From an uncultured Candidatus Saccharibacteria bacterium (GTDB lineage Bacteria; Patescibacteriota; Saccharimonadia; Saccharimonadales; CAIOMD01): 64,000 nucleotides of DNA. Location: the NCBI GenBank assembly GCA_903859365.1, contig CAIOMD010000007.1:477-64476 (forward strand). The letters are read 5' to 3'. Shown here one piece after another: positions 2,405 to 46,230 of the stretch. The notes below the pieces were generated by a model. It was not told the origin of the DNA and did not search any database. It was given only the letters and a program-made list of their open reading frames with translations. Made by a program: the position numbers and the translations under genes. How positions within the stretch are numbered: the stretch's first letter is position 1; the number at the start of each line of letters is the position of its first letter.

Positions 2405-3046
2405 ATGAGAGTTAAAAAGTACGTTCCCTATGCGATGATAGCTATTGGCTTTGGACTTATTATTACTGGGGTTGTGGTTGCATTCACTCAGCAAAAACAA
2501 AATGAAAAAATTATAAAAATAGCCTCAGCCGATGGCGTTACCTTGCCAACTACTAAAAAAATAACCGAAAGTGAATTTCAAAAATATACAGTCGCTGCAT
2601 CACTGCCACGTTATATTTTTATACCATCGATTAATGTTAAGGCGATTGTGCAATCAGTTGGGCTGACAAAGAACAATCAAATTGATACGCCAAATTCAAT
2701 CTATAATACAGGATGGTTTAACCAAAGTAGTAAGCCAGGTCAAGCCGGCGCAACGGTTATTGATGGCCACTTTGGTACATGGCAGACAAAGGGAATTTTT
2801 TCAGGTATCAGTGGCCTTAAGCCAGGTACGATTGTACAAATACAAAGAGGTGATGGCACGAAATTAAATTATTCCGTCGTAAGCGTCAAAACCTATCCAC
2901 TTGCTAATGTTGATATGAATGCGCTCTTAAACCCGGTGAATAGTAAAATTCCAGGATTGAATTTGATCACTTGTTCCGGCTCAGTAAATAAGGGAACTTA
3001 CCAGTACGATAAACGTGTCATTGTTTTCGCGCAGCTCGTAAAATAA
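2405..3046 (+). CDS. sortase family transpeptidase
   Basis: It has an N-terminal TM anchor, a catalytic His in VIDGHFG, a Cys in NLITCSG and a downstream Arg in KRVIVFA. It lies 2 nt after the putative substrate gene. Confidence 0.85.
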   Translation: MRVKKYVPYAMIAIGFGLIITGVVVAFTQQKQNEKIIKIASADGVTLPTTKKITESEFQKYTVAASLPRYIFIPSINVKAIVQSVGLTKNNQIDTPNSIYNTGWFNQSSKPGQAGATVIDGHFGTWQTKGIFSGISGLKPGTIVQIQRGDGTKLNYSVVSVKTYPLANVDMNALLNPVNSKIPGLNLITCSGSVNKGTYQYDKRVIVFAQLVK

Positions 3047-3152: not shown

Positions 3153-4358
3153 ATGAAAATTTTAATGCTGGGCTGGGAGCTACCACCTCACAATAGTGGG
3201 GGTTTGGGTGTTGCTTGCTATCAGCTTTGTGAAGCATTGTCTGTTAAAGATATAGATATTGAATTCGTGCTTCCATATAACGAGGTTCACTCCATTGACT
3301 TTATGAAGGTGCGGGCTGCGCTTTCGCACTCTGCTGGGAGTCTTCGGATAAGTGGTATTGCTTACGATAGTTTTAAGTATACTGATACGCAAGGTAATGA
3401 GCAGTGGCTTTCGATATTCGACCAACAAAAACTTTACGAGCAAGCAGCGGCACAGCTTACCGGCTATGAATCATTTGATATTATTCATGCTCATGACTGG
3501 TTAACCTTTAAAGCGGGGGTACTCCTCAAGCAAAAAACAGGAAAGCCGCTTATTCTACACGTACACTCTGTTGAAAGTGATCGATCGGGTGGAAATTACG
3601 GCAATCCCTTGGCACGAGAAATAGAACAAGAATCTATGCTTATGGCAGATAAAATAGTTGCAGTCAGTCAGCATACTAAAAACATCATCATAGCCGACTA
3701 TGCAATTCCAGCAGATAAAATAGAAGTGATTCATAATAGTATTGGCAAAATAGATGAAGTGAATCTGAGCGAACCTAATTCTTACAAATACCTTGCAGCG
3801 CTCAAAAATCATGGGTATAAGGTCATATCTAGTATCGGTCGACTGACTATTCAAAAAAATCTGATTAACCTTTTGCATGCGTTTAAACTCGTTACTAATA
3901 AAGAACCAAAAGCTATTTTACTTTTTGTAGGGAATGGCGAACAAGAGACGGAGCTTCTACTGCTTGCGGCTGAACTTGGCATTTCAAGAAATGTTATGTT
4001 TGCTGGGTTTCAAAGGGGAAAACGTTGGCGTGATGCATATACCATCGCTGATCTTTTTGTGATGCCATCCGTATCAGAGCCATTTGGCTTAACTCCACTT
4101 GAAGCAGTCGCGCTCGGTGTCCCAGTTCTCATATCAAAACAATCGGGTGTTTCCGAAGTTTTGAAAAATGCACTTAAGGTAGATTTTTGGGATGTTAATG
4201 AAATGGCCAATCAGATGCTTGCAGTACTACAGAACCAAAGCCTTAAAAACGAGCTCATAGTAAATGGAAGTAAAGAATATGAGTCAATGAATTGGTCCAA
4301 AGCTGCCAATCAACTAGAAGAAATTTACGCAAAAGCAGTTCGAGGAGTAAGCGGGTGA
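3153..4358 (+). CDS. glycogen/alpha-glucan synthase-like glycosyltransferase (GT4/GT5 type)
   Basis: The N-terminus MKILMLGWELPPHNSGGLGVACYQL and the SEPFGLTPLEA (E-x7-E) motif are typical of retaining GT-B glucan synthases. Confidence 0.8.
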   Translation: MKILMLGWELPPHNSGGLGVACYQLCEALSVKDIDIEFVLPYNEVHSIDFMKVRAALSHSAGSLRISGIAYDSFKYTDTQGNEQWLSIFDQQKLYEQAAAQLTGYESFDIIHAHDWLTFKAGVLLKQKTGKPLILHVHSVESDRSGGNYGNPLAREIEQESMLMADKIVAVSQHTKNIIIADYAIPADKIEVIHNSIGKIDEVNLSEPNSYKYLAALKNHGYKVISSIGRLTIQKNLINLLHAFKLVTNKEPKAILLFVGNGEQETELLLLAAELGISRNVMFAGFQRGKRWRDAYTIADLFVMPSVSEPFGLTPLEAVALGVPVLISKQSGVSEVLKNALKVDFWDVNEMANQMLAVLQNQSLKNELIVNGSKEYESMNWSKAANQLEEIYAKAVRGVSG

Positions 4359-5566
4359 CTAAGCGTGCCATAGTACTGTACTTACACGCGCACCAGCCGT
4401 TTCGAATAGGTCATTTTTCTACTTTTGACATCGGTGAAAATAAGAATTATTTTGATGAACCTAATGACATGCGTGCTAATAACCGCGCAGTATTAGACAA
4501 AGTGATTCAAAAATCTTACATTCCGACGAATCGAAAACTCTTAGAACTGATTCAACAGCACCCTGAGTTCAAAATTAGTTTATCCATCACTGGTACCCTT
4601 ATTGAACAACTCGAGAAATGGTCACCGCATACATTGGAAAGCTTTAAGGAGCTTGTTGCAACGGATAAAGTTGAAATAGTTGGTGAGACCTATCATCATT
4701 CACTCGCTTTCTTTTATTCACTCGCTGAATTCAATAATCAAGTACAAATGCATCGAGATAAAATCTGGGAAGTATTTGGAAAAAAACCGACAGTATTTAG
4801 AAATACAGAACTTAGTTATAACAATGATCTCGCCGTTTGGGCAGATCGTGCAGGATATAAAGCAGTACTTGCGGAGGGATGGGATCCAATTCTGCAGTGG
4901 AGAAGCCCTAATTATGTTTATCGGCCTGTCGGAACACAAACGCTCAAGTTGCTGCTCAAAAATTATAAATTGAGTGATGATATTGCTTTTCGCTTTGGTG
5001 ATCAGAATTGGGAGTCTTGGCCGCTAACTGCAGATAAGTATGCTCACTGGCTTAATGCAATAGATAATGGTACAAACATAAATCTTTTTATGGACTATGA
5101 AACATTTGGTGAACATCAATGGAAGGAGAGTGGAATTTTTGATTTTCTCTCACATTTCCCTGGCGAGTGGCTTAAAAATGAAAATAATACTTTTATGACA
5201 GCGTCTGAAGCAGTTGATAGTTACGATGCGGTTGATACGATCGATACGCCCTATACTACAACCTGGGCCGACACTGAACGCGATCTTAGTGCATGGCTCG
5301 GTAACCCAATGCAGCAACAAGCAATAGAAGCCCTCTATGGATTATCTGAAAAAATACTTTCAAGCAATGACTGGGCGCTCATCGAAGACTGGCGTAAACT
5401 TCAAACGTCGGATCATTTTTATTATATGTGTACGAAGTGGTTTAATGATGGTGATATTCATGCGTACTTTAGTCCCTATGACAGCCCCTATATCGCTTTT
5501 ATGAACTTTATGAACACTTGGCATGATCTTCGTTATAGATTAACCGAGAAAGGGTTGGATACCTAA
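4355..5566 (+). CDS. glycoside hydrolase family 57 protein
   Basis: It carries LYLHAHQPFR (the GH57 region I HQP motif) and DYETFGEH. GTG 4355 overlaps the upstream stop (GTGA) and is preferred over the ATG 4292 start in the ORF track. Confidence 0.8.
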   Translation: MTKRAIVLYLHAHQPFRIGHFSTFDIGENKNYFDEPNDMRANNRAVLDKVIQKSYIPTNRKLLELIQQHPEFKISLSITGTLIEQLEKWSPHTLESFKELVATDKVEIVGETYHHSLAFFYSLAEFNNQVQMHRDKIWEVFGKKPTVFRNTELSYNNDLAVWADRAGYKAVLAEGWDPILQWRSPNYVYRPVGTQTLKLLLKNYKLSDDIAFRFGDQNWESWPLTADKYAHWLNAIDNGTNINLFMDYETFGEHQWKESGIFDFLSHFPGEWLKNENNTFMTASEAVDSYDAVDTIDTPYTTTWADTERDLSAWLGNPMQQQAIEALYGLSEKILSSNDWALIEDWRKLQTSDHFYYMCTKWFNDGDIHAYFSPYDSPYIAFMNFMNTWHDLRYRLTEKGLDT

Positions 5567-7501
5567 ATGGCAAGACCGGTAATTCTCGGTAATGGTGCGC
5601 TTACTGTAGGGATTAATGAATTTGGACTAGTTGATGATTTTTATTTTCCTCATGTGGGGATGGATAACCTCACTACCTCTCGAAGTCAGAGCCATCTTCT
5701 CGGAGTGTGGTTAGATAATACTTTTTCATGGGTGAATGATGGATCCTGGAAGATATCAGTGGATTTTGAAGTTGACGCATTAATTGGCCACTGCGAGATG
5801 ACGAACGAAACATTGGCTATTAAGCTTTCGACGACAGATTTTGTAGATTCTGAGATGAATATTTTTTCCCGAATTATTGTTGTGCATAATCTCGCAAATC
5901 ACGCACGTTCGATAAAACTTTTCACTCACCAGGTATTTGAAATATCAAATAACGGGAGAGCTGATACAGCACTGTATCATCCTGATAATCAGTACATCTT
6001 GGATTATCAAGGAAACTGTAATTTAGTCATTTCTGGCGAAACGGAAAGTGGAAAATCATTTGATCAATTTGCCGTAGGTAATTATAGAGTTGAAGGCAAG
6101 GAAGGTGTTTATAAGGACGCAGAAGATGGTGTGCTATCCAGTAATCCTGTCGAACATGGGGGAGTAGATTCAGTCTTGGGATTTAATTTATCAATTGCGG
6201 CTGGCGCAAAATCTGAAGTTCGATACTGGGTGGCTGCTGAGAAAAATCGTAAAGATGCTGAAGGCCTACATGAGAGTGCAAAAAAAGGTGGAATTGAAGA
6301 AAAATTAAAAACAACTAAACAGTATTGGTTGAACTGGATGAAACCCGCCAGTATTGCTATTAATGCAAGTCCAAATAAATATAAGAATCAGATAAAGAAA
6401 TCTTTAATGATAATAAAGGCACATATAGATAAAGATGGTGGGATCATCGCCTCCATAGATTCTTCCATTTATAACTATGGCAGAGACTATTACAGTTATG
6501 TGTGGCCAAGAGATGGTGCATTTGCTATATGGCCTCTTCTGCGGCTTGGTTTTACTGATGAAGCAAAGAAATTTCTGACCTTCTGTAAAGATGTTCTCAC
6601 TGATGAGGGATATTTAATGCATAAATATCTTCCAGATAAAGCAATTGGCAGTACGTGGCATCCCCTCATACACGATGGTGTGAGCGAACTTGCAATTCAA
6701 GAAGATGAGACTGCCATTATCATATATATGATAAGTGAGTATTTTCGATATACGAAAGATGCTATTTTTACCAAGGATATGTACGAAAAATTTGTAGTTC
6801 CTGCTGCCAATTTCTTAGCTAATTTTGTTGATACAGAAACGCAATTACCTCATGCGAGTTACGACCTTTGGGAGCAAAAATTCCTGACTTCAACCTATAC
6901 AACGGCCGTAACCGCAAAAGCGCTTGACTGTGCTATTGTACTCTGTAACCAATTCGGAAAAAATGAATCAACTCCTTGGCAAAAAGCTCTAGATGGATTT
7001 AAAGCAAAGAGTGCTACTTTTTTTGATACTTCATCAAAAACATTCATCAAGGGTTTTTTACAAAATAAAACAACCGGAGTTATTGAGCCAGATACAACTC
7101 TCGATGTATCAAGCTTATACGGTGTCGTGCAATTCGGTTATTTCAATAATGATGAATACGATCGGATTTTTCATACCGCAAAAGTTTTAGAAGAAAGATT
7201 ACTGGACGCATCCCCGTCAGGGGGTATGCCGCGCTATGAGCATGATGATTATTTCTTAAATAAAAAAGATTTAATGGGTAACCCATGGATCGTTACGACT
7301 CTTTGGATGGCACAGTTTTATATAAAGAAAGGTGATAGAAAAAAGGCAGAGCACTATATTGACTGGTGTCTTGCAACGGCACTACCGAGCGGAGTATTTT
7401 CAGAACAGGTTGATGCGGTTTCAAAAGATGCTCTCTCGGTTACCCCGCTTGTGTGGAGCCATGCGGAGTTTGTTACAACTATCCTTTCACTACATAGTTA
7501 A
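5567..7501 (+). CDS. glycoside hydrolase family 15 (glucoamylase/glucodextranase-like)
   Basis: GH15 signature blocks are present: YSYVWPRDGAF, IQEDETA, YDLWEQKF, SEQVD and PLVWSHAEF. The ATG directly follows the upstream stop. Confidence 0.85.
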   Translation: MARPVILGNGALTVGINEFGLVDDFYFPHVGMDNLTTSRSQSHLLGVWLDNTFSWVNDGSWKISVDFEVDALIGHCEMTNETLAIKLSTTDFVDSEMNIFSRIIVVHNLANHARSIKLFTHQVFEISNNGRADTALYHPDNQYILDYQGNCNLVISGETESGKSFDQFAVGNYRVEGKEGVYKDAEDGVLSSNPVEHGGVDSVLGFNLSIAAGAKSEVRYWVAAEKNRKDAEGLHESAKKGGIEEKLKTTKQYWLNWMKPASIAINASPNKYKNQIKKSLMIIKAHIDKDGGIIASIDSSIYNYGRDYYSYVWPRDGAFAIWPLLRLGFTDEAKKFLTFCKDVLTDEGYLMHKYLPDKAIGSTWHPLIHDGVSELAIQEDETAIIIYMISEYFRYTKDAIFTKDMYEKFVVPAANFLANFVDTETQLPHASYDLWEQKFLTSTYTTAVTAKALDCAIVLCNQFGKNESTPWQKALDGFKAKSATFFDTSSKTFIKGFLQNKTTGVIEPDTTLDVSSLYGVVQFGYFNNDEYDRIFHTAKVLEERLLDASPSGGMPRYEHDDYFLNKKDLMGNPWIVTTLWMAQFYIKKGDRKKAEHYIDWCLATALPSGVFSEQVDAVSKDALSVTPLVWSHAEFVTTILSLHS

Positions 7502-11553: not shown

Positions 11554-12678
11554 ATGGATGACAACAATACGCCGAATGAAATACAAGTGAAAAAAGAAGA
11601 AATAGGAAACGTGCTTTCTGCCCAAATACCAAAAACAGTTACTGAAGCACCGCATTCTGAAGAAGTGCAAGCTCCTGTAGCCCCCTTAACGATTCCAACT
11701 CCACAAAGCCAGCCAGTGGTCTTACCTGATTCTCCTGTATCTGCAATTAATCTCTTATTGCAATGGCTTATGTATGCTTTCTATGGTTGGGCGTTGGTTG
11801 CTTTTATCTATTTGACTTCTTCCACAGTATATTATTACCTGAATGGCAAAGACTCACAAAGTTATGGATCACTAGCGCTTTATGCAGTTGTAGCGGTGGT
11901 CATCTTGCTTGGGATTGCCGTGGCGTGTAATTTGTTCTATCAAAAGAATGAACCTCGAGCTAAAAAGGGTCCTGCTGCTGTAATAATGATTATTCATGCA
12001 GTTATTTTTGCACTTTTTGCAATCGGTGCACTCATTGAAGCTATTTTTGTTATTGTAGCATATTCCCTGAGTAGTAATGGAGAATCAAGTGCAGTGTGGG
12101 CAGGGGTTATTTCAGGAATAGTAGTATTTATTTTTTATTCTGCAACCTTTGTACGAACAATAAACCCTCCAAATTTAAAATGGATTAATAAAACCTATAT
12201 GTGGGGAATGATTGGGGTAGCGATTTTGCTTTCTGTACTTGCAATCATCGGTCCTGCAACGAGAAGTTTTAAGAGCAAAAATGACCAGCTTATAGAAAAT
12301 AACATTGGGAGTATTGTGTCAGAAATTGAAACTAAAACTACTACTGACGGTGCTCTCCCTAATTCATTAAGCTCTCTAAAATTGAGCGGTGATGCCTTGA
12401 AAATAGTTACTAATAATTTAGTTACCTATATACCTAATAGCTTGCAGAACTCGGACCAAAATAATTACTACTACGAACTATGCGCAGATTTTATATATGC
12501 ATCCCCAGGTTACACTTCCTCGATAGGGAAAAACCAGAATGCCGACAACTCATCTAATTACATGACATATCCGGATACCTATGCTCATCCATCCGGTCAT
12601 TATTGTTACTTAATTTCTATTTTGAATAGCGGTTATTCATCAATGTATAATTCATCAAGCTCCACTATCACAAATTAG
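11554..12678 (+). CDS. multi-pass integral membrane protein, unknown function
   Basis: It has several hydrophobic helices between about aa 60 and 240 and a C-terminal soluble region of about 130 aa. It starts 5 nt after the upstream gene. Confidence 0.65.
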   Translation: MDDNNTPNEIQVKKEEIGNVLSAQIPKTVTEAPHSEEVQAPVAPLTIPTPQSQPVVLPDSPVSAINLLLQWLMYAFYGWALVAFIYLTSSTVYYYLNGKDSQSYGSLALYAVVAVVILLGIAVACNLFYQKNEPRAKKGPAAVIMIIHAVIFALFAIGALIEAIFVIVAYSLSSNGESSAVWAGVISGIVVFIFYSATFVRTINPPNLKWINKTYMWGMIGVAILLSVLAIIGPATRSFKSKNDQLIENNIGSIVSEIETKTTTDGALPNSLSSLKLSGDALKIVTNNLVTYIPNSLQNSDQNNYYYELCADFIYASPGYTSSIGKNQNADNSSNYMTYPDTYAHPSGHYCYLISILNSGYSSMYNSSSSTITN

Positions 12679-13307
12679 CAATGCGCAGTTGAAACAACAT
12701 CGGGCATGCCACTGGGGCGTGCCCGTTTCAGTTCATAAAAGTGTGAGCTTTGCGCAAGTGCGCTTATAGCGTCCCATAATTTTACTGATTCATCAATTTC
12801 AGGCAAATCCTGTAGAACTGGACCGAAAAATCCCTGTTTTTGGCCTTTGCTATTTTGGAAGATTATGGTTGGAACACCAATATCGTTTCCTACAACTGCA
12901 ACAGCCTGATCAATCTTTTTTTGTAAGATCGGGTCCCATTTCTTGTTATCGGCTTCCTTTAGTAATGACGCAGGAAGTTTTTGTTCATTTAGAATTTCTT
13001 CAATAAGTGAATCAGTAAATTTTTCTTCCCCCAAGTGGTAGGAAATTCCAAAGCGCGTGTAGAGATCTATTAAAGATCCACTATGTTCGGTGGCGGCTTC
13101 GATAACTCGAATTACTCTATGTGCAGCATAATGTTCCTCTGCGTAGGGTGTGTGCTTCGCTTCCGGCTCAAGTTCGTTATTTTTAAGTGTAAGGCTGAAT
13201 GGAACCCACTCTATGGTGATATCCCTTTTATTTGATACCTGTAATAACCAACGGCTTGTAATCCAACAAAATGGGCAACTTGGGTCAAAATAAAATGCTA
13301 TATTCAT
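12675..13307 (-). CDS. DsbA-family thioredoxin-fold oxidoreductase (no signal peptide)
   Basis: A CPFC active site sits at the N-terminus (FDPSCPFCWITSRW), and the length is DsbA-like. Confidence 0.8.
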   Translation of the reverse strand: MNIAFYFDPSCPFCWITSRWLLQVSNKRDITIEWVPFSLTLKNNELEPEAKHTPYAEEHYAAHRVIRVIEAATEHSGSLIDLYTRFGISYHLGEEKFTDSLIEEILNEQKLPASLLKEADNKKWDPILQKKIDQAVAVVGNDIGVPTIIFQNSKGQKQGFFGPVLQDLPEIDESVKLWDAISALAQSSHFYELKRARPSGMPDVVSTAHC

Positions 13308-15129: not shown

Positions 15130-16287
15130 TCAATGTTTTTGAGGCAATATAACTTGTTGTTTTCTCAGAGTATCTGTAATTGTTCTTTTAGCAAATGCTT
15201 CACAGGCTGCTTTAGCATCAGCGTACATCATTTGCTCTGGGGGAGTTTTTTGTGTCCACGCACTTGGTCCACGAAGCGCTCCAACAATACCAAGTTCTTT
15301 TGCTACCTGAAGATAGCGTATGGCATCAATAACGACTCCAGCACTATTTTCTGAGTCTTGAACAGATAGTTTTATATCAATATCTACAGGTGCATCTCCA
15401 AAACCACGAAGACGAAGATTAAAATAGGCAACTTTATTATCTTTTAGATAGGGAAGATGAGTGCTTGGCCCAGCAAAAAGGCTATGCTCAGGCACGGGAA
15501 TGCCACGAATATCATTTTGTGCGCGGATGACATTCTCTTTTGATTTCTTCTTTGAAGCAAGACGGGACTGCACCATCATATTATTAAAGTCGGTGTTTCC
15601 GCCAATATTAAGTTGTTGGTGAAAATCGACAACAAATCCTCTATCGAAAGCCAATTCTTGTAGCACCTGGGAAAGGATACTTGCGCCAAGCGCGCTTCGC
15701 ATATCATCTCCCACGATTGGTAATTTTGCATCAATAAATTTCTTTTCCCACTTCGGATCACTGGCAATAAAAACAGGGATACAATTCAAGAAGGCAACCT
15801 TTGCATCAATTGCAGCCTGCGCGTAAAATTCTGTTGCCTCCTGAGAGCCAACCGGTAAATAATTGACGAGTATATCTGCGCCTGATTCTTTAAGTACTTT
15901 CACAACGTCAACGGGTTTTTTATTGGCAAGACGGAAACCAAGTTCTTCGGGTTGGCTAAGCATGTAGTCGGATACCCCATCAAGGGTGTGACCCATTTGA
16001 ACGATGGGTCCCGCGGGTACATCTTTATAAAAAACTCGAGCACAATTGGGTAGGGCAAATATAGCATCACCGATTGGTTTGCCAACTTTACGTATATCGA
16101 CATCAAATGCTGCGACAACCTCAATGTCGGTTGGTGCGTACCCACCAATATCTTCAAACATTATTCCTGACACGGAATTGTTTTTATTTGCCTTATAATA
16201 TGCAAAACCTTGATAGAGTGCAGAGAAACAGTTTCCAACTCCGATAACAGCGATTTTAATCTTTTTATTTGGTGATTTATTTACCAT
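15130..16287 (-). CDS. ino1: myo-inositol-1-phosphate synthase (inositol-3-phosphate synthase)
   Basis: It shows IAVIGVGNCFSALYQG NAD-binding and the overall MIPS pattern. ATG 16287 (MVNKSPNKK) is preferred because the longer ORF-track start overlaps the upstream gene. Confidence 0.85.
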   Translation of the reverse strand: MVNKSPNKKIKIAVIGVGNCFSALYQGFAYYKANKNNSVSGIMFEDIGGYAPTDIEVVAAFDVDIRKVGKPIGDAIFALPNCARVFYKDVPAGPIVQMGHTLDGVSDYMLSQPEELGFRLANKKPVDVVKVLKESGADILVNYLPVGSQEATEFYAQAAIDAKVAFLNCIPVFIASDPKWEKKFIDAKLPIVGDDMRSALGASILSQVLQELAFDRGFVVDFHQQLNIGGNTDFNNMMVQSRLASKKKSKENVIRAQNDIRGIPVPEHSLFAGPSTHLPYLKDNKVAYFNLRLRGFGDAPVDIDIKLSVQDSENSAGVVIDAIRYLQVAKELGIVGALRGPSAWTQKTPPEQMMYADAKAACEAFAKRTITDTLRKQQVILPQKH

Positions 16288-16316
16288 AGTAATTATGCCT
16301 ATTCTAACATATTTTT

Positions 16317-16871
16317 TTAAAATGGCTGTTCTTTGAGTCCTATGAGCCAGCCAATAAAGGTTGAAATAGGATGAAGAATAAACCAAACAATACCTATCAT
16401 GACTATTTGCCCAAAGGATAATTCAACAAAGATTTGACACGCTAAAAGGCCCCCGATAATGTAGTCAATTTGATCAAACGGAAACCATGTTTTACCTGAC
16501 TTAATATTAAATTGTCTTTTAAAGAAACTCTTTATTGCATCACCAATGAGCGCCCCTCCACCAAGAGCAGCTCCTGCAACAATCGGATTAATGGAGTTAT
16601 AGGGAATTGATCCGGAAATGCTGTGAATCCAAGCACTATGGTGAAACCCTATCACCTGAAGCCAAAATACAAGTATGCCCATCACAATACCTGCGATAAA
16701 GCCGCGAACAGTTTTATGATTCCCGGTTATTCTTTTGCCTCGAAAATGCTTGCCACCGTCAATCGGTATCGCGAGCCAATCGCTCCCAGGAATTTTATTT
16801 GCAAAGACGGGTGCAGCATTAGCGAGACCGGCGGGTAAAAAGAACCATAAAGCAAAAAGAATATCTTTCAT
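16317..16871 (-). CDS. CDP-archaeol synthase (CarS/DUF46)-like membrane cytidylyltransferase
   Basis: 184 aa and polytopic. The sequence LPAGLANAAPVFANKIP...IPIDGGKHFRGKRITGNHKTVRGFIAG matches the CarS family pattern as I recall it (P-x-x-AN-x-x-PV, PIDGG, G-x-x-KT-x-RG). Confidence 0.7.
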   Translation of the reverse strand: MKDILFALWFFLPAGLANAAPVFANKIPGSDWLAIPIDGGKHFRGKRITGNHKTVRGFIAGIVMGILVFWLQVIGFHHSAWIHSISGSIPYNSINPIVAGAALGGGALIGDAIKSFFKRQFNIKSGKTWFPFDQIDYIIGGLLACQIFVELSFGQIVMIGIVWFILHPISTFIGWLIGLKEQPF

Positions 16872-16887
16872 TTAATTTGAAGTGAAA

Positions 16888-17526
16888 TTATTTTTCATGT
16901 TGCGCAACGGTTATTACTACTTTAACCAACCGCTGAATAGCAGTAAGTGTACTTATGATAGCTATTATAGCAATAGTTTGTGCTGGTACATTAAACAGTA
17001 ATCCAAGAACAAGAATAAACATTCTTATTTCAAATCTCATAAGTCCATCAGCAAACATTTTGTTCTTTATTTGAGCTGAAATGTTTGTGTCATTTAGGGC
17101 AGATTCACCTTTTGCTTTGATATAGCTGATGCAAAGCGAACTCCCAACAGCGATAACCGCCCAGACTGCATAACCACTATAGTTATGGTGAATACACCAA
17201 TAAGCAAGTGAGGCATAAAGTATCACTTCTTTCATCCGATCAGTTGAAGCATCCAGTACCATCCCCGCTAAACTTTCTTTCTCCTGCAGCCTGGCAAGTT
17301 CACCATCAAGCGTATCAAAGAGACCAAAAATGATGAGCGTAACAGCGGCAGCAGTAAGTTGACTCTGAAGGATGAAGTAGGCAATCAACAAATGCATTAA
17401 AAGTCCTACAATTGTCACCATATTCGGCGTAACTTTTCCTCTTGAAATAAGGTGGGTAGCGCGAGCTATTTTTTTCATTACGCTACGTACTTGTTTTCGT
17501 ATGGGGTCAATTATTTCGTTTATCAT
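16888..17526 (-). CDS. CDP-alcohol phosphatidyltransferase (phosphatidyl-/archaetidyl-inositol-phosphate synthase-like)
   Basis: An exact DG-x2-AR-x8-G-x3-D-x3-D motif is present (DTLDGELARLQEKESLAGMVLDASTD). ATG 17526 overlaps the upstream stop (ATGA). Confidence 0.85.
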   Translation of the reverse strand: MINEIIDPIRKQVRSVMKKIARATHLISRGKVTPNMVTIVGLLMHLLIAYFILQSQLTAAAVTLIIFGLFDTLDGELARLQEKESLAGMVLDASTDRMKEVILYASLAYWCIHHNYSGYAVWAVIAVGSSLCISYIKAKGESALNDTNISAQIKNKMFADGLMRFEIRMFILVLGLLFNVPAQTIAIIAIISTLTAIQRLVKVVITVAQHEK

Positions 17527-18059
17527 GGGAGATGCCTTAGTAGTGAGACTATTTTTGGTTGCCAATAATTTCTGCCAATCATAGTTTCAACTTTTGAATT
17601 AAATTTATTTGCTTGAATTGCAATGGAATAAAGACCCGATTTATTTGCTCCCCATATATCCTGGAGTGGTCGATCTCCTACCATTGCTATATTTTCAGGC
17701 TTTAGCTTGGCATGTGCAAGTATTTTTTTATAGAACGCTTTTTGTGGTTTCTTAATGCCTTCCTGTACCGTCACAATTCCATTTACGCGCAGCTTTTTGC
17801 CTATGACATTAAGGGAACGTTTCGTATTTGAAGCAAGGATAATGGTGGAGATTCCCGCTTCGTGAATCTTTTTCGTTAATGCATCTGCATACGTGGCGTC
17901 AATATCCATATGACCATGATCAATTAGCGTTCCATCTACATCAAAAGCCATAGCTTTAATGCCCATTTCTGCCAACAGTTTGTAGTTAATATCCATAACT
18001 GAGGTTGCAATAAAATCAGGACGAAAACCGTTACTTTTATTTTTTTTAGTAGCTTGCAT
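17523..18059 (-). CDS. HAD-IIIA phosphatase, YqeG/PGP-phosphatase-like
   Basis: HAD motif I is AFDVDGTL and the distal motif is MVGDRPLQD. Size and pattern fit the YqeG family. Confidence 0.8.
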   Translation of the reverse strand: MQATKKNKSNGFRPDFIATSVMDINYKLLAEMGIKAMAFDVDGTLIDHGHMDIDATYADALTKKIHEAGISTIILASNTKRSLNVIGKKLRVNGIVTVQEGIKKPQKAFYKKILAHAKLKPENIAMVGDRPLQDIWGANKSGLYSIAIQANKFNSKVETMIGRNYWQPKIVSLLRHLP

Positions 18060-18069
18060 CTGTAGTCTT

Positions 18070-18075
18070 AGTATA
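18070..18075 (-). promoter_or_regulatory. -10-like box (TATACT)
   Basis: On the minus strand TATACT lies 10 nt upstream of ATG 18059, the first gene of the inositol-lipid operon. Confidence 0.35.
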
Positions 18076-18203
18076 CCTAATTAATACACAAACAAGTAGC
18101 CGGAGGTGTATTAAAGCATAAGCCTGTTGCTAAATTTACTATATTTTTTTAATTTAAAAAGTGTAAAGTCAAAAGTGTACCCTAAATATTAAAAGGAGAA
18201 AAT

Positions 18204-18938
18204 ATGAGTTCAGTAAATGATTGGTTAGCACTCGGTACAGTCGGAATGACTGCAGGAAGTGTTATCCTTGCTTTAATTGGCGTAACCATGCGTAAAGAAG
18301 ATCGACACCATGTCTATCTTGCAATGGCGATTACCCTTATAGCAGCAACAGCATATTATGCAATGCTAAATAATGTAGGAGATATTATGGTGGGCGGAGT
18401 AACAGTGCAGTTAGCTCGTTATGTCGACTGGGTTGTAACAACACCACTTCTACTTATAAGCTTAATTTCTATTGCATTGCCTTCGGGTAAATCAAAAAAT
18501 AAAATGAGCTTGATTTGGGCAGTGGTTGGACTTGATGTATACATGATTATCACTGGTGTGATCGCATCACTCGTTAATAACGACACTCGCTGGTACTGGT
18601 ACGCATTTAGCTGCGTAGCACTGCTTGGTGTTGTTTACATGCTGTATGGAACTATCATGAATGAATCCAAAAAGGTTGCTGGTAAGAAAATATCACAGCT
18701 CTATACGTATGTAGCGCTTTACCTATCAGTCCTCTGGGCTGCTTACCCAGTTGTATGGTATCTATCAGGCGTTGGTGTAAATAAAATTAGTTTTGCATCT
18801 GAAAACTATGCCTATGCTGTTCTTGATTTACTCGCAAAGGTTGGGTTTGGAATAGTGGTACTTGTATCAGTAAGCCGACTAGCCGCGTCTGCTAAGCCAA
18901 AAGCTGGCGAAAGCACTGTTGAAGCAGCGTCAAAGTAA
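18204..18938 (+). CDS. type-1 microbial rhodopsin (D-T-S motif; probable light-driven proton pump)
   Basis: Helix C reads RYVDWVVTTPLLLISL, giving D75/T79/S86 at bacteriorhodopsin positions 85/89/96. WAAYPVVW is present, and helix G DLLAKVGFG carries the Schiff-base Lys212. There are seven hydrophobic helices and a strong AAGGAG SD. Confidence 0.9.
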   Translation: MSSVNDWLALGTVGMTAGSVILALIGVTMRKEDRHHVYLAMAITLIAATAYYAMLNNVGDIMVGGVTVQLARYVDWVVTTPLLLISLISIALPSGKSKNKMSLIWAVVGLDVYMIITGVIASLVNNDTRWYWYAFSCVALLGVVYMLYGTIMNESKKVAGKKISQLYTYVALYLSVLWAAYPVVWYLSGVGVNKISFASENYAYAVLDLLAKVGFGIVVLVSVSRLAASAKPKAGESTVEAASK

Positions 18939-19028: not shown

Positions 19029-19913
19029 ATGAAAATAGCAATTATTGGGGCAAGTGGGTATATCGGGTCTAATCTAATCAAACGATTATTGATCGATAAC
19101 TCAAGGGATAAGATTGTAGCAGTATCAACACATGCAACGGGCATGGCTCTTGAAGACGACAGGTTAGAAAAAGTTGATTGCGATATTTTAACAAGTACAG
19201 ATATTCAAAAAATACTCCAGGGGTGTGATGTCGTTTATTATTTAATTCATATGATGGCACAAAATAAGATGGATTTCGTCAAAGCTGAAGCAATAGCTGC
19301 GCGCCATTTTGTACAAGCAGCGAATGCGGCGCAAGTAAAAAGAATTATCTATCTAGGAGGACTCGGAAACGATCAAGATCATTTATCTCGACATTTAGCG
19401 AGTCGTCACCACACAGGGGAAATCTTACGTTCAGGCAGTGCACAGGTTATTGAATTTAGAGCTTCAATGGTAATAGGGGATGGAAGTATTTCTTATGACA
19501 TCATCAAAAGACTCGTGCATAAACTGCCAATCTTGACGATTCCCAAATGGTCTAAGACTATGACGCAGCCCATTGGACTTTCTGATACCTTAGACTATCT
19601 ACTAGCCGCGAAAAGTGTGCCACTAGATCATTCTGAAATTGTCGAAATTGGTGGGCCAGAGCAAATGAGCTATCGTAATTTAATGGAACGGTATGCGAAA
19701 TGGGAACACAAAAAGGCAGTATTTATCTATTTGCCTATTATTCCAGTTGGCATTTCTGCCTGGTGGCTTAATTTATTTACTCCGAAAAAACATGCCAAGG
19801 TAGGGAGGGTTATGGTTGAGTCTCTTGTTAATCCAATGGTCGTAACCACAAAAAGAGCAACCGAGCTTTTTCCACAGATAAAGCCCAAGTTGCTCGAAGA
19901 TGTTTTTGTATAA
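19029..19913 (+). CDS. NAD(P)-binding atypical SDR / NmrA-like oxidoreductase
   Basis: The N-terminus is a Rossmann motif, MKIAIIGASGYIGSNL. At 294 aa the length is typical of epimerase/NmrA-like proteins. Confidence 0.75.
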   Translation: MKIAIIGASGYIGSNLIKRLLIDNSRDKIVAVSTHATGMALEDDRLEKVDCDILTSTDIQKILQGCDVVYYLIHMMAQNKMDFVKAEAIAARHFVQAANAAQVKRIIYLGGLGNDQDHLSRHLASRHHTGEILRSGSAQVIEFRASMVIGDGSISYDIIKRLVHKLPILTIPKWSKTMTQPIGLSDTLDYLLAAKSVPLDHSEIVEIGGPEQMSYRNLMERYAKWEHKKAVFIYLPIIPVGISAWWLNLFTPKKHAKVGRVMVESLVNPMVVTTKRATELFPQIKPKLLEDVFV

Positions 19914-45223: not shown

Positions 45224-45583
45224 TTAGTTACCGGGGACGATGATACCAATGTTATATTGATTAATCGCATTAAGTCTTTTTTGAGATTCATTATTCGGGG
45301 TAGTAGGAATTATTTTTTTCGTAGCGTCAGTGCCGCAATCGGATGAATAGTCTGGATTAGATTTATTCTGCAGAAATGGAGTTATATCGTAAACGGATGA
45401 AGTGACTAAAATCCAACAATCATTGACTGAATTATGGCGCATCAATTCATGGATAGTAATTTCTTGGGCTGTTCCATTGTTTTGGGTTATTGAATTTTCT
45501 GAATTTTTAAAAATTTGATATATTCCAAATGAAACTGCGATCAGTACCACGAGACTTACAGCAAAAATAAATTTCTTTTTCAC
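45224..45583 (-). CDS. membrane-anchored cytochrome b5-like fold protein lacking the canonical His ligands
   Basis: ITIHELMRHNSVNDCWILVTSSVYDITPFL matches the b5/MAPR N-terminal pattern. The HPGG motif and the second axial His are absent. Confidence 0.55.
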   Translation of the reverse strand: MKKKFIFAVSLVVLIAVSFGIYQIFKNSENSITQNNGTAQEITIHELMRHNSVNDCWILVTSSVYDITPFLQNKSNPDYSSDCGTDATKKIIPTTPNNESQKRLNAINQYNIGIIVPGN

Positions 45584-46230
45584 TATTTTAATTCCCTTAA
45601 AATATCGATTCTATCACTACAGATTTTAATTTCTTTAGATAAACTGTGGAGCAGGCGTGCCCACGTCTTATTATTTACAGTATACACAAAAAGATTAATA
45701 CCCCTCTTTTTGATTCGATAGTAGCTCCATGGTGCCAGAAACCATTTGCTCATTGAAATGCCGCCAAAGCCATATTTTTGAGCATTTTCTATAATCTTTA
45801 TTGGATAACCATGCTGAGCCAGGTAGAGTCTAGATGTATCTACTCCATTCTTTGACAGCTCAAGAAGAGCACCTGGCAAGAAGCTACATGCAAAACTTTC
45901 AGTATGTTTAAGTAAAAAGGGTGCCACAAAGTCAGCACTCTTTTTTGATTTTAATTCAACAAAAAATTTCTCATTTGTTATTGCTTCATCCAATTCTCGA
46001 AGAGTTAATAGATCATTATCTAATTTTTTTAAATCACCATAATTTGTCTTGGATATTTTTTGGTTCTCCAATGATGCATCATGGAAAAGTACTGCCACAT
46101 TATCTTTGGTTACTCGAATATCGATTTCTATATAGCCAGCATCAAATTGAACAGCCCTTTTAATTGCCGCTAGCGTATTTTCTTTTTCAAAATAAGAAGC
46201 ACCGCGATGCGCAACAAGCCATGATTTCAT
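45583..46230 (-). CDS. glycerophosphodiester phosphodiesterase family protein
   Basis: It carries the GDPD motifs VAHRGAS...ENTLAAI and IEIDIRVTKDNVAVLFHD. Confidence 0.8.
   Translation of the reverse strand: MKSWLVAHRGASYFEKENTLAAIKRAVQFDAGYIEIDIRVTKDNVAVLFHDASLENQKISKTNYGDLKKLDNDLLTLRELDEAITNEKFFVELKSKKSADFVAPFLLKHTESFACSFLPGALLELSKNGVDTSRLYLAQHGYPIKIIENAQKYGFGGISMSKWFLAPWSYYRIKKRGINLFVYTVNNKTWARLLHSLSKEIKICSDRIDILRELK

What the first reader, a model, noticed from the sequence alone, without database searches (positions are those of the whole stretch)
15130..18059. Self-contained inositol-phospholipid operon built around a CDP-archaeol-synthase-like gene
Four co-directional, tightly packed genes encode the following steps:
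1. A YqeG/PGP-phosphatase-like HAD enzyme.
2. A CDP-alcohol phosphatidyltransferase with a perfect DG-x2-AR-x8-G-x3-D-x3-D motif.
3. A 184-aa polytopic protein matching the CarS (CDP-archaeol synthase, DUF46) pattern, rather than bacterial CdsA.
4. A myo-inositol-1-phosphate synthase.

The junction between genes 1 and 2 is an ATGA overlap. Together these cover every step from glucose-6-P and a phosphatidate-type lipid to an inositol phospholipid: Ino1P synthesis, CTP activation of the lipid, condensation to the inositol-phosphate lipid, and dephosphorylation.

CarS is the archaeal activating enzyme, so its use in a bacterium is unusual. CPR bacteria are generally reported to lack de novo fatty-acid synthesis. 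That suggests head-group remodelling of scavenged host lipids, and Actinobacterial hosts are rich in phosphatidylinositol. The operon is divergent from the rhodopsin gene.
Basis: partly seen in the sequence, partly recalled or inferred. Interest (0 to 1): 0.68.

Follow-up and report, generated by a model that had tools for sequence, protein, structure and literature searches.

The report
Inositol-phospholipid operon with archaeal-type lipid activator
A tiny freshwater Saccharibacterium carries a four-gene operon that most likely makes phosphatidylinositol from a scavenged lipid, and it appears to activate that lipid with an archaeal-type enzyme that is widespread in its bacterial group (CPR, the Candidate Phyla Radiation).

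Summary
**Observation: confirmed.** Four tightly packed minus-strand genes are present:
- a PgpP/YqeG/Gep4-like HAD phosphatase, 17523-18059
- a CDP-alcohol phosphatidyltransferase, 16888-17526, with an ATGA overlap onto the HAD gene
- a 184-aa CarS-like cytidylyltransferase, 16317-16871
- an actinobacterial-type myo-inositol-phosphate synthase (MIPS), 15130-16287

**Interpretation: largely supported, with corrections.**
- The CarS-like gene is not an oddity of this genome. Relatives were found in at least 514 stretches of species-representative genomes, and the best 80 are nearly all CPR.
- In 66 of those 80 loci it lies within 3.5 kb of a transferase of the archaetidyl-/phosphatidyl-inositol-phosphate synthase type. 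The two are sometimes fused into one protein.
- Most loci place a PHP-domain phosphoesterase between the two genes. This lineage has a HAD phosphatase instead, a likely non-orthologous replacement, plus MIPS.
- Five Levyibacteria-type loci also insert a diacylglycerol-kinase-family gene. That points to a diacylglycerol/phosphatidate substrate rather than archaeol.
- The transferase keeps the inositol-phosphate-binding residues of mycobacterial PIP synthase.

**Prior work.** Starr et al. 2018 already annotated this gene trio in a Saccharibacterium as CdsA plus PI synthase, without noting its CarS nature or the phosphatase.

**Verdict.** This is a new variant of the known two-step bacterial PI pathway. 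No activity has been tested, and the absence of cdsA from the genome could not be checked.

The parts
17523..18059 (-). HAD-IIIA phosphatase of the PgpP/YqeG/Gep4 type (178 aa). Proposed phosphatidylinositol-phosphate phosphatase, the last step of the pathway.
   Evidence: - PF09419 PGP_phosphatase 41.1 bits (cutoff 20.4); TIGR01668 YqeG 79.3 bits (cutoff 89.1).
- The catalytic hhhDxDx motif is present as 'AFDVDGT'.
- YqeG/PgpP was shown to be a PGP phosphatase homologous to yeast Gep4 (PMC11804483).
- Its stop overlaps the transferase start as ATGA.
- Only 5 close clusters (at least 76% identity) were found, so it is lineage-specific.
16888..17526 (-). CDP-alcohol phosphatidyltransferase of the PIP/AIP-synthase type (212 aa). 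Proposed reaction: CDP-lipid + inositol-phosphate gives the inositol-phosphate lipid + CMP.
   Evidence: - PF01066 57 bits.
- NCBIfam scores: AIP synthase 107.4, PIP synthase 98.9, BT1523-type PIPS 69.7, DIPPS 54.4, pgsA 19.3 bits.
- Perfect D1xxD2GxxAR..GxxxD3xxxD4 motif.
- R97, S134, Y135, K137 and R199 align with MtPIPS R94, S132, Y133, K135 and R195. R168 aligns with the RxxR arginine of AF2299 (roles from PMC4634129 and PMC6506517).
- The top seven PDB matches are all inositol-phosphate-clade enzymes.
16317..16871 (-). CarS-like (DUF46) integral-membrane CTP:lipid-phosphate cytidylyltransferase (184 aa). Proposed CDP-lipid synthase.
   Evidence: - PF01864 97.3 bits against PF01148 26.9 bits; NF003114 125.7 bits over the full length (cutoff 148).
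- Profile match to A. pernix CarS 5GUF, E = 2.9e-18.
- AlphaFold model pLDDT 91.4. 5GUF is the only significant Foldseek hit (TM 0.70/0.81).
- 22 residues are at least 85% conserved in both the archaeal and the CPR set, including N18, D38, K53, T54, D111, K118, R119, D133, Q134 and D136.
15130..16287 (-). myo-Inositol-3-phosphate (L-Ino-1-P) synthase, actinobacterial type (385 aa).
   Evidence: - PF01658 75.7 bits; TIGR03450 351.7 bits aligned over 1-354 of 355 (cutoff 638).
- Best solved relative is M. tuberculosis Ino1 1GR0 at 330 bits. T. maritima 3CIN scores 67 and Bacteroides 7NWR scores 28.
- An independent gene call gives 385 aa.
18060..18203 (.). 144-nt divergent intergenic region between the operon and the rhodopsin gene. 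Likely holds the operon promoter.
   Evidence: A sigma-70-like match, TTTACA-18-TATAGT, lies at 18167-18138 on the minus strand. The scan as a whole is not above shuffled expectation (18 sites found against 15.9 +/- 4.1), so this is weak evidence.

Best explanation
The four genes form one operon that makes a phosphatidylinositol-type lipid by the prokaryotic two-step route.

1. MIPS converts glucose-6-phosphate to myo-inositol-3-phosphate.
2. The CarS-like membrane enzyme uses CTP to convert a lipid phosphate, most likely phosphatidate derived from scavenged diacylglycerol lipids, into the CDP-activated lipid.
3. The PIP/AIP-synthase-type transferase joins that CDP-lipid to inositol-phosphate, giving phosphatidylinositol-phosphate.
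4. The PgpP/Gep4-type HAD phosphatase removes the terminal phosphate to give PI.

The transferase, a phosphatase and the CarS-like gene make up a module widespread in CPR (Candidate Phyla Radiation) bacteria. This lineage has swapped the usual PHP-domain phosphatase for a HAD phosphatase and added MIPS, which makes the operon self-sufficient for the head group.

Shown here: gene order, family membership, conserved catalytic and acceptor residues, the CarS fold, and conserved synteny and fusions. Inferred: every enzymatic activity, the identity of the lipid, and the end product.
For: **Families and motifs**
- establish the four families, the motifs and the ATGA overlap.

**CarS identity**
- Profile match, fold and conserved residues all point to CarS.

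**Acceptor is inositol-phosphate**
- The transferase scores best with AIPS/PIPS models.
- It keeps MtPIPS R94, S132, Y133, K135 and R195, and probably R155.
- MIPS is adjacent in the window and in the 7 related contigs, and lies within 3.5 kb in L006, L037, L052, L058 and L066.

**Coupling of CarS-like and transferase**
- 66 of 80 species-representative loci have a CDP-alcohol transferase within 3.5 kb of the CarS-like gene. In 49 of them it lies upstream on the same strand, often overlapping.
- Distant family members P0256 and P0161 overlap a transferase gene, and P0163 has one about 1.6 kb upstream.
- Three single-polypeptide fusions of transferase plus CarS-like exist: P0160, P0212 and P0217.

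**A phosphatase is needed, so the head group is phosphorylated**
- A PHP phosphoesterase sits in the module in 48 of the 80 loci.
- Here it is replaced by a PGP-phosphatase-family HAD that overlaps the transferase.
- This parallels Bacteroides, where the PgpA homologue BT_1525 is the PIP phosphatase in the MIPS/PIPS cluster (PMC9246714).

**The lipid is diacylglycerol-type**
- A DAGK_cat lipid kinase lies between PHP and CarS-like in L033, L058, L065, L081 and L098.

**The CarS-like may be the only CDP-lipid synthase**
- In the closed T. rhizospherense genome, the only K00981 hit in the held part of the table (about 80% of it by my estimate) is the 186-aa gene of this same trio. A separate pgsA is also present.
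Against: - No activity has been measured for any CPR CarS-like, transferase, PHP or HAD protein.
- Archaeal CarS (A. fulgidus) prefers DGGGP over phosphatidate and does not complement an E. coli cdsA mutant (review PMC9385802). Activity on phosphatidate would therefore need a changed specificity.
- All curated NCBIfam equivalog cutoffs are missed: 125.7 below 148, 107 below 180, 79 below 89, and 352 below 638.
- Most CPR loci with the module have no MIPS nearby, so the acceptor in the wider family is less certain.
- The HAD could be a housekeeping PGP phosphatase.
- The rest of this genome could not be searched for cdsA, pls, fab or ether-lipid genes.
Confidence: 0.68

Rival explanations
1. 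The transferase, phosphatase and CarS-like genes are the cell's general CDP-diacylglycerol to phosphatidylglycerol pathway (a PGP synthase plus a PGP phosphatase). MIPS is merely adjacent and supplies inositol for another purpose, such as a solute or a mycothiol-like metabolite.
For: - The HAD belongs to the PgpP/Gep4 family, whose characterised members dephosphorylate PGP.
- Most CPR loci with the module lack an adjacent MIPS.
- An Rv2466c-like protein, of the mycothiol-dependent reductase type, lies two genes downstream of MIPS.
Against: - The transferase scores 19 bits on the pgsA model against 99-107 bits on the PIPS/AIPS models.
- It keeps the inositol-phosphate-binding residues.
- T. rhizospherense has a separate pgsA in addition to this module.
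- MIPS adjoins the module in several separate lineages.
- A PGP-phosphatase homologue acting as PIP phosphatase has precedent in BT_1525.
Confidence: 0.1
2. The module makes an archaeal-type or otherwise isoprenoid-based inositol lipid (archaetidylinositol-like). The CarS-like enzyme would act on a polyprenyl or ether lipid phosphate, as true CarS does.
For: - Both enzymes resemble archaeal models most closely. The CarS-like scores 125.7 bits on NF003114. The transferases score best on the AIP synthase model, up to 148.5 bits in Levyibacteria.
- Characterised CarS prefers DGGGP.
- GGGP/DGGGP synthase homologues have been reported in one Parcubacteria genome (PMC7852524).
Against: - No prenyltransferase or G1P dehydrogenase is seen in the 64-kb window.
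- Five loci pair the module with a DAGK_cat diacylglycerol-kinase-family gene.
- The CPR proteins form a clade separate from the sampled archaeal CarS.
- They carry class-specific bulky residues, W129 and F132, where archaea have Ala and Leu beside the DQxD motif.
Confidence: 0.08
3. The operon makes a soluble inositol-phosphate compound of the di-myo-inositol-phosphate type. The CarS-like protein would replace the usual soluble cytidylyltransferase.
For: - The transferase is homologous to DIPP synthase and AF2299.
- DIPP synthesis also needs a cytidylyltransferase and a phosphatase, and the activating enzyme is often fused to the transferase (my knowledge of IPCT/DIPPS).
Against: - The DIPPS model scores only 54 bits against a cutoff of 580.
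- There is no NTP-transferase (IPCT) domain.
- The activating enzyme is a polytopic membrane protein with the CarS fold, which has lipid-binding grooves.
- The module is associated with a lipid kinase.
- By my knowledge, DIP is a solute of hyperthermophiles, whereas these are cold freshwater-lake bacteria.
Confidence: 0.03
4. The CarS-like protein is a CTP-dependent lipid kinase, as dolichol kinase and yeast Dgk1 are within the same superfamily. It would make phosphatidate, not CDP-lipid.
For: It has a weak partial hit to CTP_transf_1. By my knowledge that family also holds CTP-dependent kinases.
Against: - The full-length match, the fold and 22 conserved residues are shared specifically with CarS.
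- Loci that already encode a DAGK_cat kinase still keep the CarS-like gene.
- The downstream transferase needs a CDP-activated donor, and in the T. rhizospherense table no other candidate is annotated.
Confidence: 0.04

Closest known systems
Bacteroides thetaiotaomicron inositol-lipid cluster BT_1523 (PIPS), BT_1525 (PIP phosphatase) and BT_1526 (MIPS) (Heaver et al. 2022, PMC9246714)
   Same: - MIPS, a PIP-synthase-type CDP-alcohol transferase and a recruited PGP-phosphatase homologue are clustered.
- The route is two-step through a phosphorylated PIP intermediate.
   Different: - The phosphatase here is a HAD of the PgpP/Gep4 family, not a PgpA homologue.
- The cluster includes its own CDP-lipid synthase, and that enzyme is CarS-type.
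- There is no inositol-phosphoceramide synthase.
- The transferase scores only 70 bits on the BT1523 model (cutoff 350).
Mycobacterial / actinobacterial PI pathway: Ino1, CdsA, PgsA1 (PIPS) and an unidentified PIP phosphatase (PMC4634129, PMC6506517)
   Same: - The chemistry is the same.
- MIPS is most similar to M. tuberculosis Ino1 (1GR0, 330 bits).
- The transferase keeps the PIPS signature and the inositol-phosphate-binding residues.
   Different: - A CarS-like enzyme stands in place of CdsA.
- All steps sit in one operon.
- An explicit candidate phosphatase is present.
- The transferase is below the PIPSynth equivalog cutoff (99 against 170).
Archaeal CarS plus archaetidylinositol-phosphate synthase pathway (ApCarS 5GUF; review PMC9385802)
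   Same: - Both enzymes are of the same families and score best on archaeal models.
- The CarS fold and the polar catalytic core are conserved.
   Different: - The host is a bacterium.
- The proteins form a separate clade with about 33% identity to archaeal CarS.
- They carry an insertion of roughly 20 residues between TM2 and TM3 and class-specific residues R56, W129 and F132.
- Context with a DAG-kinase-family gene suggests a diacylglycerol-based substrate.
The transferase / PHP / CarS-like module seen across CPR bacteria, as annotated in Ca. Teamsevenus rhizospherense genes 1165-1167 (Starr et al. 2018, PMC6031116)
   Same: The transferase and CarS-like genes are homologous and in the same order.
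   Different: - The PHP phosphoesterase is absent in the window.
- A HAD phosphatase lies upstream of the transferase instead.
- MIPS is appended downstream.

Membership tests
CDP-archaeol synthase CarS (Pfam PF01864 / NCBIfam NF003114) | Scores above the family's curated profile thresholds | tested here: inconclusive
   Pfam PF01864 scores 97.3 bits, well above its cutoff of 22. The NCBIfam equivalog NF003114 scores 125.7 bits over the full length (5-172 of 172) but is below its cutoff of 148.
CDP-archaeol synthase CarS (Pfam PF01864 / NCBIfam NF003114) | Five-helix CarS membrane fold | tested here: met
   The AlphaFold model has pLDDT 91.4. Foldseek against the PDB gives one significant hit, 5GUF, with TM 0.70/0.81 and 27% identity.
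CDP-archaeol synthase CarS (Pfam PF01864 / NCBIfam NF003114) | Conserved polar core: the DxxxSxxKR and DQxD motifs plus N, D, K and T of the N-terminal half | tested here: met
   N18, D38, K53, T54, D111, K118, R119, D133, Q134 and D136 are at least 85% conserved in 120 archaeal and 144 CPR sequences. Their catalytic roles could not be checked, because the ApCarS structure paper is not held.
CDP-archaeol synthase CarS (Pfam PF01864 / NCBIfam NF003114) | Groups within archaeal CarS in a tree | tested here: not met
   Neighbour joining gives a clean split between the archaeal and the CPR set. It is perfect in 79 of 100 bootstraps and has at most one misplaced sequence in 98. Mean identity between the sets is 33%. 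Sampling was biased to the best hits of each query.
CDP-archaeol synthase CarS (Pfam PF01864 / NCBIfam NF003114) | Substrate is DGGGP (unsaturated archaetidic acid) | not testable with these tools
   Context with a DAGK_cat kinase in five loci argues for a diacylglycerol-derived substrate. An enzyme assay is needed.
Bacterial CdsA (Pfam PF01148 CTP_transf_1) | Full-length match to the roughly 264-position CdsA profile | tested here: not met
   The score is 26.9 bits, and only residues 52-124 match profile positions 169-231. Foldseek gave no significant PDB hit other than 5GUF.
PIP synthase / AIP synthase (CDP-alcohol phosphotransferases using inositol-phosphate) | D1xxD2GxxAR...GxxxD3xxxD4 signature | tested here: met
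   The window has 'FDTLDGELARLQEKESLAGMVLDASTD'. The signature residues are invariant or at least 90% conserved across 22 CPR homologues.
PIP synthase / AIP synthase (CDP-alcohol phosphotransferases using inositol-phosphate) | Inositol-phosphate-binding residues (MtPIPS R94, S132, Y133, K135, R155, R195) | tested here: met
   R97, S134, Y135, K137 and R199 align directly with MtPIPS. R168 matches only through the RxxR motif of AF2299, so the R155 equivalence is probable rather than certain.
PIP synthase / AIP synthase (CDP-alcohol phosphotransferases using inositol-phosphate) | Scores above the NCBIfam equivalog cutoffs | tested here: not met
   NF040950 scores 107.4 against a cutoff of 180, and NF045883 scores 98.9 against 170. 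They are still the two best models.
Di-myo-inositol-phosphate-phosphate synthase (IPCT/DIPPS) | DIPPS profile match, and a soluble IPCT cytidylyltransferase domain or gene | tested here: not met
   NF041135 scores 54.4 bits against a cutoff of 580. No NTP-transferase domain is in the operon.
PgpP / YqeG / Gep4 HAD-IIIA lipid-phosphate phosphatases | Family profile match and the hhhDxDx catalytic motif | tested here: inconclusive
   PF09419 scores 41.1, above its cutoff of 20.4, and the 'AFDVDGT' motif is present. TIGR01668 scores 79.3, below its cutoff of 89.1. The structure model was too poor to use (pLDDT 58.8).
PgpP / YqeG / Gep4 HAD-IIIA lipid-phosphate phosphatases | Dephosphorylates a phospholipid head-group phosphate (PGP, or PIP as proposed here) | not testable with these tools
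   This is inferred from the ATGA coupling to the transferase and from the PHP phosphatase holding the equivalent place in relatives.
myo-Inositol-3-phosphate synthase | Full-length homology to characterised MIPS | tested here: met
   PF01658 scores 75.7. TIGR03450 aligns over 1-354 of 355 at 351.7 bits, below its actinobacterial equivalog cutoff of 638. M. tuberculosis Ino1 (1GR0) scores 330 bits, E = 1.5e-97.

The most novel reading that the evidence does not exclude
A CarS/AIP-synthase enzyme pair, related to the archaeal enzymes but forming its own clade, is the standard and perhaps only route by which CPR bacteria activate lipids. It would act on scavenged, kinase-rephosphorylated diacylglycerol, or on archaeal lipids in CPR bacteria that parasitise archaea. 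It would let organisms without fatty-acid synthesis rebuild their own inositol phospholipids from host lipid. On this reading the PHP-domain and PgpP-type HAD proteins are new classes of the PIP phosphatase, an enzyme reported as unidentified in Actinobacteria.
Probability: 0.35. Interest if true: 0.75.

Novelty: new variant of a known kind. Interest (0 to 1): 0.58.

Why it matters
CPR bacteria are thought to take their lipids from hosts, yet how they build their own membrane composition is unknown. This operon and the module behind it give a concrete, small and testable pathway:
1. kinase
2. CarS-like activation
3. inositol-phosphate transfer
4. dephosphorylation

If the CarS-like enzyme works on phosphatidate, an enzyme family treated as a marker of the archaeal side of the 'lipid divide' would be the normal CDP-diacylglycerol synthase of a large bacterial radiation.

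The module also nominates two candidate families, PHP and PgpP-type HAD, for the PIP phosphatase. That enzyme is reported as unidentified in mycobacteria (PMC4634129, PMC6506517).

PI lipids could also serve as anchors for surface glycolipids involved in attachment to Actinobacteria, as Starr et al. 2018 proposed.

Tried and rejected
- **HAD structure.** The model built from 5 sequences was poor (pLDDT 58.8), and the afdb50 library was unavailable. There is therefore no fold evidence for the HAD. PDB sequence hits were only generic HADs.
- **ApCarS structure paper.** Ren et al. 2017 is not held, so the catalytic roles of the conserved residues are not cited.
- **Taxonomy of distant CarS-like representatives.** Cluster names gave only two labels, Kaiserbacteria and Roizmanbacteria.
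- **Promoter and terminator scan.** It was not above shuffled expectation. Operon boundaries rest on spacing alone. A promoter-like site just upstream of IMPDH suggests IMPDH may be transcribed separately.
- **Absence of cdsA, plsX/Y/C, fab and ether-lipid genes.** Genome-wide absence could not be tested. Only the 64-kb window and a truncated published annotation table were available.
- **Literature.** Searches found no paper that mentions CDP-archaeol synthase together with Saccharibacteria or Patescibacteria. One paper mentions it alongside CPR, in unrelated passages. The Tn-seq paper on Saccharibacteria does not mention lipids.
- **DIP-solute reading and CTP-dependent kinase reading.** Both were considered and given low weight (see rivals).

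Full report
**1. What is in the window**

Four minus-strand genes fill 15130-18059.
- HAD hydrolase: 17523-18059, 178 aa.
- CDP-alcohol phosphatidyltransferase: the real start is the ATG at 17526, giving 212 aa. Its ATG overlaps the HAD TGA stop as ATGA.
- Polytopic 184-aa protein: 16317-16871, 16 nt after the transferase stop.
- myo-Inositol-phosphate synthase (MIPS): it starts at the ATG at 16287 (385 aa), 29 nt after the previous stop, and ends at 15130.

An independent public gene call on an identical contig gives the same four products. That contig is freshwater-lake metagenome scaffold BUCK21-1 scaffold_9, 266,806 bp.

A type-1 rhodopsin gene (18204-18938, +) lies divergently across a 144-nt spacer. 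IMPDH follows MIPS on the minus strand, about 50-70 nt downstream depending on the start codon chosen. It has a promoter-like site of its own, so I do not count it as part of the operon.

**2. Family assignments**

| Gene | Best profile hits |
|---|---|
| HAD | PF09419 'mitochondrial PGP phosphatase' 41 bits (cutoff 20.4); TIGR01668 YqeG 79.3 bits (cutoff 89.1) |
| Transferase | PF01066 57 bits; AIP synthase 107.4; PIP synthase 98.9; Bacteroides BT1523-type PIPS 69.7; DIPP synthase 54.4; pgsA 19.3 |
| 184-aa protein | PF01864 CarS-like 97.3 bits; CTP_transf_1 26.9 bits (partial); NF003114 125.7 bits over the full length (cutoff 148) |
| MIPS | PF01658 75.7 bits; TIGR03450 351.7 bits over the full length (cutoff 638) |

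- The HAD carries the DxD motif 'AFDVDGT'. YqeG was renamed PgpP in 2025, when it was shown to be the essential phosphatidylglycerophosphate phosphatase of B. subtilis and S. aureus. It is a homologue of yeast Gep4 (PMC11804483).
- The transferase has a perfect DGxxAR-x8-G-x3-D-x3-D motif.
- The best solved relative of MIPS is M. tuberculosis Ino1 (1GR0, 330 bits). This is far above the T. maritima protein (67 bits) and the Bacteroides protein (28 bits).

**3. The CarS-like protein**

- A profile of 25 homologues matches A. pernix CarS (5GUF) at E = 2.9e-18.
- An AlphaFold model (pLDDT 91.4) has 5GUF as its only significant PDB match, with TM 0.70/0.81.
- I compared 120 archaeal CarS sequences with 144 homologues of the window protein. 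The archaeal set spans Desulfurococcales, Methanobacteriaceae, Thermococci, Verstraetearchaeota, Marsarchaeota and others.
- Twenty-two residues are at least 85% conserved in both sets. They include N18, D38, K53, T54, D111, K118, R119, D133, Q134 and D136.
- The two sets nevertheless separate cleanly in a neighbour-joining tree. The split is perfect in 79 of 100 bootstraps. Mean identity between the sets is 33%, against 49% and 40% within them.
- The CPR set has an insertion of roughly 20 residues between TM2 and TM3 (within positions 76-97). It also has class-specific residues beside the DQxD motif: R56 where archaea have Glu, W129 where they have Ala, and F132 where they have Leu.
- The review of archaeal lipid synthesis notes that ApCarS has wider lipid grooves than CdsA, to fit isoprenoid chains. 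Bulkier residues at these positions could narrow the groove for acyl chains. This is speculation.
- The sets were the best hits of each query, so intermediate sequences may have been missed.

**4. The gene is common in CPR bacteria and is tied to the transferase**

Of these, 514 encode a relative.
- The best 80 are mostly labelled Saccharibacteria or Saccharimonadia. Others are Levyibacteria, Dojkabacteria/WS6, Roizmanbacteria and Parcubacteria, plus a few probably mislabelled bins.

Gene order within 3.5 kb in those 80 loci:

| Arrangement | Loci |
|---|---|
| transferase, PHP-domain phosphoesterase, CarS-like, co-directional | 36 |
| transferase directly followed by CarS-like | 13 |
| divergent transferase, then PHP (with or without a kinase), then CarS-like | 9 |
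| transferase downstream of CarS-like, convergent | 7 |
| PHP then CarS-like only | 3 |
| divergent transferase directly upstream of CarS-like | 1 |
| CarS-like alone (four of these are cut within about 2.3 kb upstream by the contig end) | 11 |

- Every neighbouring transferase tested scores best on the AIP or PIP synthase models. Levyibacteria reach 148.5 bits on the AIP synthase model.
- More distant family members keep the link. P0256 and P0161 overlap a CDP-alcohol transferase gene, and P0163 has one about 1.6 kb upstream.
- Three proteins (P0160, P0212, P0217) fuse a CDP-alcohol transferase to the CarS-like domain.
- This is strong evidence that the product of the CarS-like enzyme is the donor substrate of the transferase.

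**5. What the acceptor and the lipid are**

- The transferase and its CPR homologues keep the residues shown by mutagenesis to bind inositol-phosphate in M. tuberculosis PIP synthase.
  - R97 corresponds to R94, S134/Y135/K137 to S132/Y133/K135, and R199 to R195.
  - R168 aligns with the RxxR arginine of AF2299 and probably corresponds to R155.
  - Sources: with residue roles from PMC4634129 and PMC6506517.
- A phosphatase is a near-constant partner. That fits a phosphorylated head group, as in the PIP route, and not a eukaryote-type PI synthase that uses free inositol.
- In the window lineage the PHP gene is absent, and a PGP-phosphatase-family HAD overlaps the transferase. I read this as non-orthologous replacement of the same step.
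- The precedent is exact. In Bacteroides, the PIP phosphatase BT_1525 is a recruited PgpA (PGP phosphatase) homologue that sits with PIPS and MIPS (PMC9246714).
- MIPS is adjacent in the window and in the seven related contigs. It lies within 3.5 kb of the CarS-like gene in L006, L037, L052, L058 and L066.
- For the lipid, five Levyibacteria-type loci insert a DAGK_cat/YegS_C lipid kinase between PHP and the CarS-like gene. This gives a chain from diacylglycerol to phosphatidate to CDP-diacylglycerol.
- No prenyltransferase, G1P dehydrogenase, cdsA, pgsA or pls gene is present in the 64-kb window.

**6. Prior knowledge**

- Starr et al. 2018 (PMC6031116) predicted PI and PI-mannoside synthesis in a soil Saccharibacterium.
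- Their Table S2 lists three adjacent genes:
  - gene 1165: 186 aa, K00981 at only 31.7 bits
  - gene 1166: 215 aa, K07053/COG0613, the PHP family
  - gene 1167: 210 aa, K17884 (by my knowledge, the KEGG orthologue for AIP synthase), manually named PI synthase
- This is the same module. They read the first gene as CdsA.
- In the held part of that table, about 80% by my estimate, there is no second K00981 and no MIPS (K01858). A separate pgsA is present (gene 1200).
- No paper in the searchable library mentions CDP-archaeol synthase together with Saccharibacteria or Patescibacteria. The one paper that mentions it alongside CPR does so in unrelated passages.
- Archaeal CarS is reported to prefer DGGGP over phosphatidate and not to complement an E. 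coli cdsA mutant. Whether the CPR clade has switched substrate is therefore a real open question.

**7. Distribution of the exact window arrangement**

- The HAD has only five close protein clusters, at 76% identity or more, in 5.8 billion sequences.
- Seven metagenome contigs repeat the whole neighbourhood: DEAD-box helicase, SDR, rhodopsin, then HAD, transferase, CarS-like, MIPS, IMPDH and an Rv2466c-like gene.
- The HAD/MIPS version is therefore specific to one narrow freshwater lineage, while the core module is broad.

**8. Verdict**

- The best-supported mechanism is a self-contained two-step PI pathway with a CarS-type activator.
- It is a new variant of a known pathway, not a new kind of system. 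Part of it has already been annotated in the literature under other names.
- Its interest lies in three things:
  - the breadth of the CarS-like/AIPS-like module across CPR bacteria
  - the possible change in substrate of an 'archaeal' enzyme
  - two new candidate families for the PIP phosphatase
- All enzymatic steps remain inferred.

Noticed in passing
window 12675-13307 (-): An Rv2466c-like DsbA-fold protein (PF22234, 139 bits), of the mycothiol-dependent reductase type, lies two genes downstream of MIPS and IMPDH. The synteny is kept in L086-L092. Mycothiol is an inositol-containing thiol of Actinobacteria, the usual hosts of Saccharibacteria.
   Followed up: partly
window 15130-16287 (-): The MIPS is much closer to M. 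tuberculosis Ino1 (1GR0, 330 bits) than to the Thermotoga (67 bits) or Bacteroides (28 bits) enzymes. This raises the possibility that it was acquired from an actinobacterial host. No phylogeny was done.
   Followed up: partly
window 18204-18938 (+) and 19029-19913 (+): A type-1 rhodopsin (PF01036, 158 bits) is followed by an NAD-binding SDR/NmrA-like protein. Both are divergent from the lipid operon, and the arrangement is conserved in all seven related contigs.
   Followed up: no
window 45583-46230 (-) and 40023-42749 (+): A glycerophosphodiester phosphodiesterase (GDPD) and a 908-aa RND/ACR_tran transporter are both plausible parts of lipid or head-group salvage. They are not linked to the operon.
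   Followed up: no
L033, L058, L065, L081, L098 (about 900 bp immediately upstream of the CarS-like gene): A DAGK_cat/YegS_C lipid-kinase gene sits between the PHP phosphoesterase and the CarS-like gene in Levyibacteria-type loci. The AIP-synthase-like transferase is divergent there.
   Followed up: yes
L001 9345-10001 and the equivalent gene in 54 loci: A PHP-domain phosphoesterase of about 217 aa (PF02811 plus PHP_C; KEGG K07053/COG0613) is the usual middle gene of the module. It is a candidate PIP phosphatase of a family not previously linked to this step.
   Followed up: partly
L003 13837-14562, with the same gene in L004 and L005: A PIG-L family gene (GlcNAc-PI / GlcNAc-inositol de-N-acetylase type) lies about 3.3 kb downstream of the CarS-like gene. 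It may hint at further processing of the inositol lipid.
   Followed up: no
P0160, P0212, P0217 (metagenome proteins): These are single polypeptides that fuse a CDP-alcohol phosphatidyltransferase to a CarS-like domain.
   Followed up: partly
window 3153-7501 (+): A GT4/GT5 glycosyltransferase, a GH57 and a GH15 glucoamylase lie in a row, probably for glycogen-type glucan metabolism. A sortase gene precedes them at 2405-3046.
   Followed up: no
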